Source: Escherichia coli (lineage in GTDB: Bacteria; Pseudomonadota; Gammaproteobacteria; Enterobacterales; Enterobacteriaceae). From it: a stretch of DNA of 64,000 nt. The notes under the pieces were generated by a model. It saw only the letters and a list, made by a program, of their open reading frames with translations. It had not been told where the DNA came from and searched no databases. Below, piece by piece: positions 22,122-24,593 of this stretch. A program made the translations under genes and the position numbers. The first letter of the stretch is position 1, and every line of letters starts with the position of its first letter. Where the stretch lies: assembly GCF_003334315.1 (NCBI RefSeq), contig NZ_QOWR01000018.1, one strand, 5' to 3'.

Positions 22122-24593
22122 TTAAGAATCAGCCTGACTCGGGATCAGTTTTTGCCAGATAACTGAAACGTATTTTGCCTGGTAACGGGCGTCATCAAGT
22201 GCATTATGGCGCTCACCTTCGAATGGAATAGCCGTTCTGGCATCGAAGTCTATGGCTTTCCCCAGCTCAACGATTGTGCGTACATCGCGATCGTTGTAGT
22301 AACGCCACGGGCAGGGGATCCCCTGCCGTTCGTATGAACGGCGCAAAATCGTGTTGTCGAAGTTGGCTCCATTTCCCCAAACCTGAACAAAAAATTCACC
22401 GGAGTTTTCGTCGATAAATTCCCGCAATTGTAACAGTGCATCATCTAACGGGATTTCATCGGTCATAATGGCAGATTGCGCTTCGCGTGATTGCTTAAGC
22501 CACCATTTAATGGTGTTCCGATCAATGACTCCGCCAGCAGTTTCCAGATCGATAGTCTTACTAAATTCCGGTCCCATATCTCCGGTTTGCGGATCGAAAA
22601 ATATTGCACCTATTGAGATGATCGGGGCATCAGGATTTTTTCCCATGGTTTCAAGGTCGATCATTAGATGGTCACACGTCCTGCTGGTGGATGTGATTTC
22701 GTGATGACCGTTCACCTTAATTGAGTGATCTGCCGTCTCGCCAGTTTCATTATCGCTATTGTGATGCTGATTGCCGCCAGTGTTCTCCTTGTGTGGATGT
22801 TCAGCGCCTTCCATTTCCTCCGGATCATCTTCCTGAACTTCAACCTGATATTCTTCATCGAATGTTTCTTGATATGTTGCGTCGCCCATCACCGCGCCAC
22901 AATCAGGGCAGTTGCCGCCGCCGGTCTGACCGCAGGCGGTGCAGACTTTTTCCACTTCCTGTTGCGCCACTGGTTCAGGCTGTTTCGTTTCTGGCTCGTT
23001 TTGTAACGCATTTGTGCTGTTTTGTTCCGCTTTTTGGTAGTTCCGTTCCGATTTATGCTGGTTCTGGTTCACAGAATCGCGGGTCTGGATCCCCTTAACC
23101 CATTTCGGATCATTCGGGTCACTAATCCCTTCAACAAATTCACCACGTGATGCAGCAAGCAACTTATCGGCGTCAGGCTGGCTGATATTGGCTGCCTGCA
23201 TAATTTTGTTTACTTCGTCAGCGGTAACTTTTATCGGCTCTGGTTGTTCTGAATCTTCAGCGGTATCTACATTTTGCGGTAAGCCCGTGTATGTGCCATT
23301 TTTTCGGGCAAAATATTCTTCTTTTGTGATTTCAGTGGCGCCAGCAGCCAGTGCCTTATCCAGACCAGAAAGTTTGTTTGCGCGACCGTATTTTTCTCCG
23401 TCCTTATCTGCGAAGAGGAAATAGAACGGCCCCTCACGCTCTACAGATGGTTCAGCTTCCGGCGCGGTTTCATTTTTTGGGATATCAGATACCTCAGTTT
23501 CCACTGCATCAGTTTGTGTTTCTGATGACTGGAGAACATCAACAGTGCCCAGGTCTGTTTCTTCATTCTCAAACACGCCCTTTGTCGTCAGGTATTCGCA
23601 GATATATTTGTTCAGTGCTATGGGATCTTTGTGAATGTCGATCGGACGCTCACGGACAAGGCCAAAAATAGTCTGGCGGTCGTAGCGAAGGGCATCAGGC
23701 TGTTTGCGCATTGATGCCGAGATACGCTTCCAGTCTTCGCGGTCGTTGTCGATAACTTCTTTTTTTGCCCAGCGATGGATGCTGCCGTCAATGTTTCCGG
23801 CATCCACATCACCAGGCCAGAGAGCGTAGGCCAGTTCGTCATCCAGTGTTTTCCATGTCTGCTTGTATTCGCGATGAATGGCAGCAATGACCGGGCTGAT
23901 TTTTCCTGTTGAATTTTCAGTGTACTGTTGATTGGCTCTGGCGCGGGCGAGATCAACAACAGACGTGTATTTTCCGGTTTCCTTGCGTTCACCTTCGCGA
24001 CGTTTTTTCCAGATGCGCATCTCTGCCTGAATTTCGGGCCATTTAGCACCAGGAATACATTTATGCTTAACCCACCCAATGGCGTGCAACTTAAGCTCCG
24101 GATACATGGCGTTAACTTCTGGCATTTTCATCAACGCTTCAACGATATGTCCGTCGAATGTTGCCATGTCTTCCTGCAACAATTCCTGTGCGCTAATAAC
24201 CATATCAACGGTGATGTTTTCACATGTGTCGAACTTAACCATGACAGCGTTCTGTACTTCAGGGGCCAGCTTGTCAAAAGTGACGTTCATCGGATCGGAT
24301 TCAGTCTCAACCGGGACAAAAGAAGCAGACTCCTCATCCCAGCGGTTTTCCTGCATATATTCAGCATCCCATGAATCGAGGGCAGGGCGGGGTATGCCAG
24401 GTTTATCCTCGCAGACAATAAATTTATAAGCGCAGTCCTGAGCAGCCGGATAATGTTCCAGGAACTGCCAGTGAAATTTTGCTCGAGCACGGCGTTCGTC
24501 GCCAGCTTCAATGGCTGTGGCTACAGCCACAGCGCCTTCTTCCCTTGTTGCCAGTTCGTCAGGAATAGCGGCGCAAATAAAGACTTTACTCAT
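22122..24593 (-). CDS. Large prophage exonuclease (823 aa) with C-terminal DnaQ-like DEDDh 3'-5' exonuclease domain
   Basis: C-terminal motifs MIDLETMG ... [13 protein letters not shown]; central acidic low-complexity linker with a CxxC...CPDCG zinc ribbon; a central stretch resembles RecE as I recall it. Confidence 0.6.
   Translation of the reverse strand: [823 protein letters not shown]

What the first reader, a model, noticed from the sequence alone, without database searches (positions are those of the whole stretch)
22122..24593. Large early exonuclease with acidic linker, zinc ribbon and DnaQ-type C-terminal domain
The 823-aa protein has a C-terminal DEDDh 3'-5' exonuclease-like domain rather than the PD-(D/E)xK fold of lambda Exo or RecE, although a central segment ([31 protein letters not shown]) resembles RecE as I recall it. 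The middle is acidic and contains a CxxC...CPDC motif. Its recombination or anti-defence role is unclear.
Basis: partly seen in the sequence, partly recalled or inferred. Interest (0 to 1): 0.3.

Follow-up and report, generated by a model that had tools for sequence, protein, structure and literature searches.

The report
RecE-like prophage exonuclease, swapped nuclease head
This is the intact version of the E. coli K-12 pseudogene ydfE: a very common but unstudied prophage protein built on the same scaffold as the recombination nuclease RecE, carrying a DexA-type 3'-to-5' exonuclease instead of RecE's 5'-to-3' nuclease and having no annealing-protein partner.

Summary
ORF 22122..24593 (-) encodes 823 aa. 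It ends in a DEDDh exonuclease domain (Pfam Rv2179c-like, E 9e-67) with all five catalytic residues, and its closest solved relative is T4 DexA. The centre (aa 262-625) is homologous to RecE 278-591 and includes a CxxC-x7-CxxC knuckle and acidic disordered linkers.

It is the last gene of the dicF-dicB-ydfD early-left operon of a Qin-type lambdoid prophage beside rspB. K-12 ydfE is its first 255 codons, cut by IS2. The gene is annotated "exonuclease". Its DEDDh head occurs in 4069 of 5426 complete E. coli genomes, against 1736 for the RecE nuclease head.

The N-terminal/central platform carries three interchangeable heads:
- PD-(D/E)XK nuclease: next gene RecT-like in 5 of 5 loci.
- DEDDh exonuclease: no annealing gene in 8 of 8 loci.
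- Rad52-like annealase: next gene Gam-like in the three loci (two clusters) checked.

Stand-alone homologues of the DEDDh head sit inside Rad52-SSB-exo-Abc2 recombination modules.

My best reading is a platform-tethered 3'-to-5' DNA exonuclease for DNA-end processing. That is inferred, not shown. A DexA-like anti-T4 defence role (HREX) is the main rival. The gene is catalogued, but I found no functional study. Interest is moderate.

The parts
22122..24593 (-). Whole gene: 823-aa YdfE-type exonuclease, identical to RefSeq WP_032216168.1 'exonuclease'
   Evidence: ORF list. 100% DNA match to E. coli CP53, annotated 'exonuclease'. PHROG 2082 matches end to end.
24309..24593 (-). aa 1-95: N-terminal alpha/beta domain of the YdfE-type platform (Pfam YdfE_N region)
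23928..24296 (-). aa 100-222: helical domain of the platform (Pfam YdfE_C region). K-12 ydfE ends at about aa 255, where IS2 is inserted.
   Evidence: AF2 pLDDT 92-98 up to about aa 200, falling to 61-73 over aa 201-222. In K-12-type strains the match covers bases 1-767 only and is then followed by IS2. dN/dS for aa 1-245 is 0.09.
23556..23861 (-). aa 245-346: helical domain shared with RecE (RecE about 278-345)
   Evidence: BLASTP alignment. NCBIfam RecE model positions 271-602. AF2 pLDDT 93-98.
23433..23555 (-). aa 347-387: acidic disordered linker
   Evidence: 29% D+E, pI 4.05. pLDDT below 50. dN/dS 0.65.
23286..23432 (-). aa 388-436: small basic beta-hairpin/helix domain ([20 protein letters not shown]...). 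It is conserved in YdfE_N-type proteins with all three heads, and I saw no counterpart in Rac RecE.
   Evidence: AF2 pLDDT 90-96. dN/dS 0.02. The motif is present in many representative sequences. This stretch aligns poorly with RecE.
23079..23177 (-). aa 473-505: conserved peptide [32 protein letters not shown] in an otherwise disordered stretch. It is shared with RecE and with some Rad52-head fusions.
   Evidence: Near-identical in RecE. Variants such as [20 protein letters not shown] appear in many representatives. AF2 pLDDT 70-85.
22899..22943 (-). aa 551-565: [15 protein letters not shown], a four-cysteine (CxxC-x7-CxxC) putative zinc knuckle
   Evidence: Cysteine positions. Conserved in RecE and in P0128, P0133, P0137 and P0162. 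AF2 confidence is low here, so zinc binding is inferred from the sequence pattern only.
22704..22898 (-). aa 566-630: second acidic disordered linker. It holds the end of the RecE homology (about aa 625) and the head-swap junction.
   Evidence: 28% D+E. pLDDT 32-39. Identity profiles against P0113, RecE and P0128 break at about aa 600-640.
22155..22670 (-). aa 642-813: DEDDh 3'-5' exonuclease head (Rv2179c-like / T4 DexA family). Catalytic residues D646, E648, D746, H796, D801.
   Evidence: Pfam E 9.1e-67. PDB 8kel (227-aa chain that aligns to T4 DexA) at E 3.8e-8 with the single sequence and 2.7e-15 with a profile. Invariant catalytic columns.
24687..24878 (-). ydfD (63 aa), immediately upstream in the same operon
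   Evidence: PHROG 1092 matches aa 19-81 of the ORF. Annotated ydfD in CP53 and K-12-type strains.
24875..25063 (-). dicB (62 aa), cell-division inhibitor, same operon
   Evidence: PHROG 1251 matches aa 36-97 of the ORF. Annotated dicB.
25238..25289 (-). DicF small RNA, same operon
   Evidence: Rfam RF00039, 72.5 bits against a gathering score of 48, E 1.7e-14.
26457..26915 (-). DicA/CI-type repressor gene at the head of the leftward region
   Evidence: PHROG transcriptional repressor families. Same position as dicA in the K-12 layout.
21798..22049 (-). Excisionase, immediately downstream. No annealing-protein gene lies between it and the exonuclease.
   Evidence: PHROG 539, E 1.4e-35.
20483..21778 (-). 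Tyrosine integrase, at the prophage end next to rspB
   Evidence: PHROG 1. rspB and rspA flank it.

Best explanation
The gene is the intact form of ydfE. It is the last gene of the DicA-controlled early-left operon (dicF, dicB, ydfD, exo, then xis and int) of a Qin-type lambdoid prophage inserted beside rspB.

The protein is a modular relative of RecE with two parts.
- A long platform, consisting of two folded YdfE-type N-terminal domains, a RecE-homologous helical domain, acidic disordered linkers, a small basic domain, a conserved LAAxRGEF..[10 protein letters not shown] peptide and a four-cysteine knuckle.
- An enzymatic head. Here the head is a DexA/Rv2179c-type DEDDh exonuclease, not the RecE PD-(D/E)XK nuclease.

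Shown here: the architecture, the intact DEDDh active site, homology to RecE up to the head junction, exchange of heads on the same platform, absence of any annealing-protein gene in the prophage, and purifying selection.

Inferred: when the operon is derepressed (induction or early lytic growth), the protein acts as a metal-dependent 3'-to-5' DNA exonuclease. The RecE-type platform brings it to DNA ends or recombination intermediates. There it trims 3' ends or 3' flaps, or creates 5' overhangs. It works with host or co-resident prophage recombination functions rather than with a partner of its own.
For: Identity and operon:
- 100% match to an annotated 'exonuclease'.
- K-12-type strains keep only bases 1-767, followed by IS2, in the order dicB-ydfD-[exo']-IS2-int'-rspB.
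- DicF, dicB and ydfD lie upstream in the window.

Head:
- Pfam Rv2179c-like, E 9e-67.
- Catalytic D/E/D/H/D invariant with T4 DexA.
- The only solved relative detectable by sequence is T4 DexA, a DNA exonuclease (profile E 2.7e-15).

Platform shared with recombination enzymes:
- RecE homology over aa 262-625.
- 900-aa proteins that are 97-98% identical over aa 1-~627 carry the RecE nuclease head instead.
- RecE_N-type proteins carry the DEDDh head (P0128).

Head type predicts the next gene:
- PD-(D/E)XK head, RecT-like gene next: 5 of 5.
- DEDDh head, none: 8 of 8.
- Rad52-like head, Gam-like gene next.

Stand-alone homologues of the head (56-59% identical) lie inside Rad52-SSAP / SSB / exonuclease / Abc2 modules of phages mEpX2 and epsilon34.

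T4 DexA has a documented role in intron homing, that is, double-strand-break repair (PMC12153337).

Selection: dN/dS is 0.09 for the N-terminal domains and 0.02 for the small domain.
Against: - No activity, substrate or polarity has been measured for this protein. DNA rather than RNA is inferred only from closer similarity to DexA and from the company the platform keeps.
- The Pfam family is named after an exoribonuclease.
- Classical single-strand-annealing recombination needs 5'-to-3' resection. A 3'-to-5' nuclease with no annealase in the same phage does not make a self-sufficient recombinase.
- The gene stays intact in heavily degraded prophages such as CP53 Qin. The head is present in 75% of E. 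coli genomes. Both fit a host-beneficial role as well as, or better than, a phage-recombination role.
Confidence: 0.45

Rival explanations
1. Prophage-encoded defence. The DEDDh head degrades the modified (5hmC-type) DNA of superinfecting T-even phages, like the E. coli DexA homologue EcD (the HREX strategy). The gene is kept because it protects the lysogen.
For: - Kang et al., NAR 2025 (PMC12153337) report that EcD is inactive on unmodified dsDNA, degrades T4 DNA and protects E. coli from T4. They also report that DexA homologues are most frequent in Escherichia and absent from K-12. K-12 has lost exactly this head.
- The window domain is a DexA homologue with the full active site.
- The head is in 4069 of 5426 genomes, often in several copies.
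- It survives intact in a decayed prophage.
- The neighbouring genes dicB and dicF are known host-affecting genes of the same operon.
Against: - In my alignment the DexA residue proposed to read 5hmC (D169) corresponds to Ala780. W152 corresponds to Tyr. The tetramer residue D90, which EcD lacks, is retained. The alignment is uncertain around D169.
- EcD is a short stand-alone protein. Its cloning primers show it starts MIDTE... and ends ...TIPETY. I could not recover its sequence to measure similarity.
- The gene sits in a repressor-controlled lytic operon next to xis and int, not in a constitutively expressed moron position.
- There is no PADLOC match, although that library dates from 2023.
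- The same platform otherwise carries recombination heads.
Confidence: 0.22
2. It is an exoribonuclease, as in the RefSeq name '3'-5' exoribonuclease'. It trims RNA 3' ends, for instance host or phage transcripts or the DicF precursor made from the same operon.
For: The best Pfam family is named for the M. tuberculosis exoribonuclease Rv2179c. RefSeq and UniRef names for close homologues include '3'-5' exoribonuclease'. The gene is co-transcribed with a processed small RNA.
Against: - The only solved structure reachable by sequence or profile is the DNA exonuclease DexA.
- Both other heads found on the platform act on DNA.
- Stand-alone homologues sit between SSB and Abc2 in DNA recombination modules.
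- In the one paper read on this operon, DicF production is attributed to promoters upstream of ydfABC and of dicF itself, with no mention of this nuclease; K-12, where DicF was studied, lacks the head.
Confidence: 0.1
3. Anti-defence or host-takeover factor. The acidic disordered linkers act as DNA or SSB-tail mimics, or the nuclease destroys a host immune nucleic acid such as retron msDNA or a signalling oligonucleotide.
For: Two long acidic disordered segments. The gene is in an early operon that also encodes host-directed effectors.
Against: No homology to any known anti-defence protein was found in PHROGs, NCBIfam, Pfam or PDB searches. The linkers evolve fast (dN/dS 0.65), as expected of spacers rather than specific mimics. 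Nothing in the neighbourhood points to a particular defence target.
Confidence: 0.08
4. A decaying remnant with no present function.
For: K-12 carries only a truncated copy. Many database entries are fragments.
Against: Thousands of genomes hold full-length copies (3537 genomes with at least 80% of the gene). The catalytic residues are intact. There is strong purifying selection on the folded domains. The gene is present in a phage deposited as a complete 45-kb genome, HannyBb.
Confidence: 0.03

Closest known systems
RecE (exodeoxyribonuclease VIII) of the Rac prophage
   Same: Same gene position: last large gene of the early-left operon before xis and int. Homologous central region (aa 262-625 <-> RecE 278-591, with a near-identical block at 473-625), including the conserved peptide, the four-cysteine knuckle and acidic linkers. 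Natural chimeras exchange the two proteins' parts within this shared block.
   Different: The head is DEDDh (3'-5') rather than PD-(D/E)XK (5'-3'). The N-terminal 245 aa are YdfE-type, not Exonuc_VIII PF06630. No RecT follows. The NCBIfam RecE model scores 280 bits against a cut-off of 1269.
T4 DexA (exonuclease A; PDB 8kel/8ken)
   Same: Same DEDDh fold family and identical catalytic residues. It is the only solved relative found by sequence. It is a 3'-5' DNA exonuclease with a role in double-strand-break-dependent intron homing (PMC12153337).
   Different: About 26% identity. DexA is a 227-aa stand-alone protein with extra loops. The residues proposed for 5hmC recognition are not clearly conserved: W152 corresponds to Tyr and D169 to Ala. 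The window protein adds a 630-aa platform.
EcD / HREX defence exonuclease of E. coli (Kang et al., NAR 2025)
   Same: An E. coli DexA-family exonuclease. The authors report such homologues are most prevalent in Escherichia and absent from K-12, which fits the distribution seen here.
   Different: EcD is a short stand-alone protein whose sequence differs at both ends. It has Ala at the DexA D90 position, where the window protein keeps Asp. Its similarity to the window head could not be measured.
Stand-alone 'exonuclease' of lambdoid and P22-like phages (mEpX2 gp32, epsilon34 gp34, PhiR47_1 'exodeoxyribonuclease VIII')
   Same: 56-59% identical to aa 640-820, with the same motifs. Also encoded in the early-left region.
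   Different: About 182-190 aa with no platform. In mEpX2 and epsilon34 they are flanked by a Rad52-family annealase, SSB and Abc2. The window prophage has none of these.
Rv2179c exoribonuclease of M. tuberculosis (founder of Pfam PF16473)
   Same: Same Pfam family.
   Different: Its substrate is RNA. It was not retrieved from the PDB by sequence or profile searches with this domain. It has no platform and no phage context.
Lambda Exo / Red-beta and other two-component 'SynExo' recombinases
   Same: An early-left-operon nuclease of a lambdoid phage.
   Different: Different fold, opposite expected polarity, and no cognate annealase.

Membership tests
RecE / exodeoxyribonuclease VIII (NCBIfam NF007259 equivalog) | Whole-protein score above the curated cut-off (1269 bits) | tested here: not met
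   280.4 bits. Only model positions 271-602 of 877 match.
RecE / exodeoxyribonuclease VIII | C-terminal PD-(D/E)XK nuclease domain (Pfam DUF3799 PF12684; RecE residues about 600-866) | tested here: not met
   No PF12684 hit. phmmer with RecE 596-866 does not hit the window protein. Identity falls to background after about aa 625.
RecE / exodeoxyribonuclease VIII | N-terminal Exonuc_VIII domain (PF06630) | tested here: not met
   No PF06630 hit in the window protein. RecE aa 1-270 does not match it. Identity is 12-27% over aa 1-440.
RecE / exodeoxyribonuclease VIII | Central region with the conserved peptide and four-cysteine knuckle | tested here: met
   BLASTP E 4e-62. The block aa 473-625 is nearly identical.
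RecE / exodeoxyribonuclease VIII | Cognate RecT gene immediately downstream | tested here: not met
   Excisionase follows directly. No annealase family was found among the 17 early-region and right-arm ORFs searched. The same holds in 7 other DEDDh-head loci.
DEDDh (DnaQ-like) exonucleases, Rv2179c-like / DexA family (Pfam PF16473) | Full-length match to the family profile | tested here: met
   aa 642-813 <-> model 2-177 of 177, E 9.1e-67.
DEDDh (DnaQ-like) exonucleases, Rv2179c-like / DexA family | Catalytic residues D, E (Exo I), D (Exo II), H and D (Exo III) | tested here: met
   D646, E648, D746, H796 and D801 are invariant columns shared with T4 DexA.
DEDDh (DnaQ-like) exonucleases, Rv2179c-like / DexA family | 3'-5' exonuclease activity, and substrate (DNA or RNA) | not testable with these tools
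   Needs a nuclease assay.
HREX (5hmC-recognising DexA-like defence exonuclease, EcD type) | Aromatic residue and Asp proposed to read 5hmC (DexA W152, D169) | tested here: inconclusive
   W152 corresponds to Tyr and D169 to Ala780, with Asp782 and Asp784 nearby. The alignment is weak in this stretch.
HREX (EcD type) | Loss of the tetramer-forming Asp (DexA D90, Ala in EcD) | tested here: not met
   Asp is retained at the aligned position.
HREX (EcD type) | Selective degradation of modified phage DNA and protection against T4 | not testable with these tools
   Needs enzyme assays and plaque assays.
YdfE family (Pfam YdfE_N PF27430 + YdfE_C PF27432; PHROG 2082 / 5943) | Homology to E. coli K-12 YdfE over the N-terminal 255 aa | tested here: met
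   99.9% DNA identity over bases 1-767 to the K-12-type pseudogene. PHROG 5943 matches aa 1-257. PF27430 and PF27432 are recorded for the 92%-identical representative P0010 and for P0113.
Two-component phage recombinase (exonuclease + annealase, 'SynExo') | An annealing protein encoded in the same module | tested here: not met
   No RecT, Red-beta, Erf, Sak or Sak4 family among the window ORFs searched, and none annotated in phage HannyBb.

The most novel reading that the evidence does not exclude
The long N-terminal and central region of RecE, whose function a 2023 review still calls unknown, is a general recombination adaptor of enterobacterial lambdoid phages. It can carry any of three heads: a 5'-3' nuclease with RecT, a 3'-5' nuclease alone, or a Rad52-like annealase with a Gam-like partner.

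On this reading the DEDDh form is the most common of the three in E. coli. It would define an unrecognised, RecT-independent way of processing DNA ends by 3'-5' resection or 3'-flap trimming. It could alternatively have been domesticated as a widespread nuclease defence.
Probability: 0.25. Interest if true: 0.6.

Novelty: new variant of a known kind. Interest (0 to 1): 0.38.

Why it matters
RecE/RecT is a workhorse of recombineering. A 2023 review still describes residues 1-~600 of RecE as of unknown function, even though full-length RecE is what makes linear-linear cloning efficient (PMC11611040).

This gene is a natural head-swap experiment on that same scaffold. It appears with identical platforms and different heads, and with different platforms and the same head. 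That gives a direct way to ask what the platform does.

The DEDDh form is also the commoner one in E. coli: 4069 genomes against 1736 for the RecE nuclease head. I found no functional study of it.

If it is a defence nuclease of the EcD/HREX kind, most E. coli strains carry it. The K-12 laboratory strains that lack it would then be unrepresentative for T-even phage work.

A practical by-product concerns PHROG families 7838 and 2489. They are labelled 'exonuclease', but the heads I examined look like Rad52-type annealases.

Tried and rejected

2. Recovering the EcD sequence to measure similarity. The paper's supplement gave only the cloning primers. An exact 20-mer scan of viral contigs gave one chance hit with no related ORF. 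None of the three stand-alone phage homologues I fetched is EcD.

4. One 'RecT fusion' (P0204) looked like a fourth head. It is RecE aa 1-~527 joined to RecT aa 83-269, which is most simply a deletion derivative, so I do not count it.

5. PADLOC gave no match for the protein.

6. The promoter and terminator scan of 21.7-27.2 kb found fewer sites than the shuffled controls and was not used.

7. Two literature searches were wasted on ambiguous terms: 'Qin' as a surname and 'full-length rece...' matching 'receptor'. One call failed on a two-letter term and one on an illegal term.

8. I considered and rejected that the ORF is a gene-calling artefact or a decaying pseudogene.
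Full report
**What is there.**
It is 100% identical in DNA to a gene of E. coli CP53 that RefSeq annotates as 'exonuclease' (WP_032216168.1). It matches PHROG 2082 ('exonuclease', 823 positions) end to end.

**Setting.**
- The window holds a lambdoid prophage inserted next to rspB and rspA.
- Reading leftward from a DicA/CI-type repressor (26457..26915) come two small ORFs, the DicF small RNA (25238..25289; Rfam 72.5 bits), dicB, ydfD, this gene, an excisionase and an integrase.
- This is the dicBF operon of the K-12 Qin prophage. In K-12-type strains the match to this gene covers only bases 1-767 and is followed by IS2, a truncated integrase and rspB.
- That stump is the K-12 pseudogene ydfE, which one preprint lists as co-transcribed with dicB and ydfD (PMC11430063).
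- The window therefore carries the intact form of ydfE.
- A phage deposited as a complete 45-kb genome, HannyBb, has a 99.4%-identical copy in the same position.

**Anatomy.**
- *Head.* Pfam places an Rv2179c-like DEDDh exonuclease domain at aa 642-813 (E 9.1e-67, full model).
  - In an alignment with T4 DexA, three stand-alone phage homologues and a RecE_N-type relative, D646, E648, D746, H796 and D801 are invariant. They correspond to the DexA catalytic residues (PMC12153337).
  - T4 DexA (PDB 8kel) is the only solved structure reachable by sequence: E 3.8e-8 with the single sequence and 2.7e-15 with a profile built without DexA.
- *Centre.* BLASTP against Rac RecE aligns aa 262-625 with RecE 278-591 (39% identity, E 4e-62). 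The block aa 473-625 is almost identical. The NCBIfam RecE model matches only that part, at 280 bits against a cut-off of 1269.
- *Model of aa 1-640.* An AlphaFold2 model (35-sequence alignment, mean pLDDT 74.5) gives these regions:
  - confident domains at aa 1-95 (alpha/beta), 100-222 (helical), 245-346 (helical, RecE-homologous) and 388-436 (small beta-hairpin/helix);
  - disorder at aa 347-382, 439-453, 503-547 and 569-640.
- *Linkers.* The segments aa 347-387 and 566-630 are 28-29% Asp+Glu.
- *Knuckle.* The four-cysteine motif is modelled with low confidence, so zinc binding rests on the sequence pattern alone.
- *Selection.* Against a 92%-identical O157:H7 copy, dN/dS is 0.09 for aa 1-245, 0.02 for the small domain, 0.23 for the RecE-like domain, 0.65 for the first linker, 0.41 for aa 437-630 and 0.39 for the head. 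The folded parts, the platform domains most clearly, are under purifying selection.

**The head is exchangeable.**
- Searching aa 1-640 against 5.8 billion proteins found two architectures side by side. One is the 812-830-aa DEDDh proteins. The other is 880-900-aa proteins that are 97-98% identical over aa 1-~627 but carry Pfam DUF3799, the RecE PD-(D/E)XK nuclease. Newer Pfam names the N-terminal domains YdfE_N and YdfE_C.
- In 1.84 billion cluster representatives, only 247 match the platform, so it is a narrow family. Foldseek hits are all Enterobacterales (Escherichia, Shigella, Salmonella, Enterobacter, Klebsiella, Serratia, Yersinia).
- A phmmer census of those representatives shows all four combinations of {YdfE-type or RecE-type N-terminus} with {DEDDh or PD-(D/E)XK head}.
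- Identity profiles place the crossovers inside the shared block at about aa 470-625.

**Head type predicts the neighbour.**

| Head on the platform | Next gene | Loci |
|---|---|---|
| PD-(D/E)XK nuclease | RecT-like annealase | 5 of 5 (L003, L005, L006, L018, L019) |
| DEDDh exonuclease | xis/int directly, no annealase | 8 of 8 (window, CP53, HannyBb, L010, 813R8, O157 FRIK2069, L020, L021) |
| Rad52-like annealase | Sipho_Gp157 / PHROG 253 'Mu Gam-like end protection' | 3 loci, 2 clusters |

- Five of five against none of eight gives a Fisher exact p of about 8e-4 by my arithmetic. The loci are not phylogenetically independent.
- In the window I found no annealase family among the 17 early-region and right-arm ORFs searched.

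**Stand-alone relatives.**
Phages mEpX2, epsilon34 and PhiR47_1 encode 182-190-aa proteins that are 56-59% identical to the head. In mEpX2 and epsilon34 the gene lies between a Rad52-family annealase plus SSB and the anti-RecBCD gene abc2, that is, inside the recombination module.

**Frequency.**

| Query | Complete E. coli genomes with a match (of 5426) | Places |
|---|---|---|
| DEDDh head DNA | 4069 | 8098 (up to 7 per genome) |
| RecE nuclease head DNA | 1736 | 1827 |

**How it most likely works.**
- *Shown:* the architecture, the intact DEDDh site, head exchange on a platform otherwise attached to a recombination nuclease or an annealase, the recombination-module context of stand-alone homologues, and purifying selection.
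- *Inferred:* the protein is a metal-dependent 3'-5' DNA exonuclease expressed from the early-left operon. The platform brings it to DNA ends or recombination intermediates.
- A 3'-5' enzyme cannot make the 3' tails of classical annealing pathways. It could trim 3' ends and 3' non-homologous flaps, or expose 5' tails. From my own knowledge, unchecked here, host exonuclease III-dependent in vivo cloning shows that 3'-5' resection can support end joining by annealing.
- T4 DexA, the closest characterised relative, acts on DNA and has a role in break-dependent intron homing (PMC12153337).
- I put this explanation at about 0.45.

**Rivals.**
- *Defence (about 0.22).* Kang et al. (NAR 2025) report that an E. 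coli DexA homologue, EcD, spares unmodified DNA, degrades T4 DNA and protects against T4. They also report that such homologues abound in Escherichia but are missing from K-12.
  - The distribution seen here fits, as does the gene's survival in decayed prophages.
  - Against it: the aligned positions of the proposed 5hmC-reading residues are Tyr and Ala rather than Trp and Asp. The tetramer Asp that EcD lacks is retained. The gene sits in a repressed lytic operon. I could not recover EcD to compare.
- *Exoribonuclease (about 0.1).* This rests on the Pfam and RefSeq names only.
- *Anti-defence mimicry by the acidic linkers (about 0.08).* Nothing supports it, and the linkers evolve fast.
- *Dead remnant.* Effectively excluded.

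**Comparison with known systems.**
- It works on a RecE-like plan but is not a RecE. It fails the curated score and lacks the PD-(D/E)XK head, the Exonuc_VIII N-domain and RecT.
- It is a member of the DEDDh Rv2179c/DexA family by profile and active site.
- It is a member of the catalogued YdfE family.
- Membership of the HREX functional class is untested and partly contradicted at the sequence level.

**Novelty and interest.**
- The sequence is not new. It is annotated in thousands of genomes and has PHROG and Pfam families.
- I found no functional study of it. 'ydfE' occurs in 16 papers of the library. None had it in its title or abstract. The only one I opened lists it as a pseudogene.
- A 2023 review still calls the RecE N-terminal region a domain of unknown function (PMC11611040).
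- The head-swap relationship, the strict pairing of head type with neighbouring gene, and the Rad52-like third head are not described in anything I could search. That search does not cover subscription journals.
- I rate it a new variant of a known kind, of moderate interest (0.38). The protein is ordinary in being common and partly annotated. It is useful as a natural dissection of the RecE scaffold and as a candidate for a widespread but unstudied nuclease function in E. coli.

Noticed in passing
   Followed up: partly
L005:6001-8703 and L006:1632-4334: Natural chimeric recE genes (900 aa) at the Rac (ttcA) attachment site. They combine a Qin-type dicB-ydfD-YdfE platform with the RecE nuclease head, followed by recT, lar/ralR, xisR and intR. 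The crossover lies in the shared block at aa ~470-625.
   Followed up: yes
P0204 (703 aa): RecE aa 1-~527 joined in frame to RecT aa 83-269. It looks like a deletion that removed the nuclease head and the start of recT.
   Followed up: partly
window 31832-32374 and 32375-32881 (+): A ydfU-like DUF968/HNH gene (PHROG 96) is split into two ORFs by a single in-frame TAA at 32372-32374. It is a likely nonsense pseudogene in an otherwise complete-looking prophage.
   Followed up: partly
window 30693-30867 (+): Rfam sok antitoxin RNA (99.9 bits) marks a hok/sok-type toxin-antitoxin locus in the prophage right arm. This corresponds to hokD of Qin.
   Followed up: no
window 38539-38955 (+): Full-length match to the cspA thermoregulator leader (109.8 bits), so the prophage carries a cold-shock protein gene with its RNA thermosensor.
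   Followed up: no
window 33432-40000: A low-GC stretch (0.37-0.43 against about 0.47-0.50 nearby) holds ORFs of unknown function at 33432-33956 (-), 34149-35108 (+) and 35506-36228 (+). These match PHROGs 2809, 3275 and 1450, all of unknown function, and have no PADLOC match. The stretch looks like a moron or cargo region.
   Followed up: partly
window 25735-26112 and 26112-26420 (-): Two small ORFs lie between the repressor and DicF. The 102-aa ORF matches PHROG 751 and the 125-aa ORF matches PHROG 33007, both of unknown function. They differ from K-12 ydfA, ydfB and ydfC, so this part of the operon is variable.
   Followed up: no
L001 (E. coli CP53, NZ_CP033096.1 2224518-2266989): In CP53 the Qin-type prophage is heavily degraded: IS903B and IS5 insertions, a truncated ydaT-family gene, and only tail-fibre remnants. 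The exonuclease, xis and int remain intact and identical to the window. The same genome also carries recE-recT elsewhere.
   Followed up: partly
L014 (phage PhiR47_1), 4994-6038: A PanT/PanA toxin-antitoxin pair lies just downstream of the stand-alone DEDDh exonuclease. An Ea22 gene is immediately upstream of that exonuclease.
   Followed up: no
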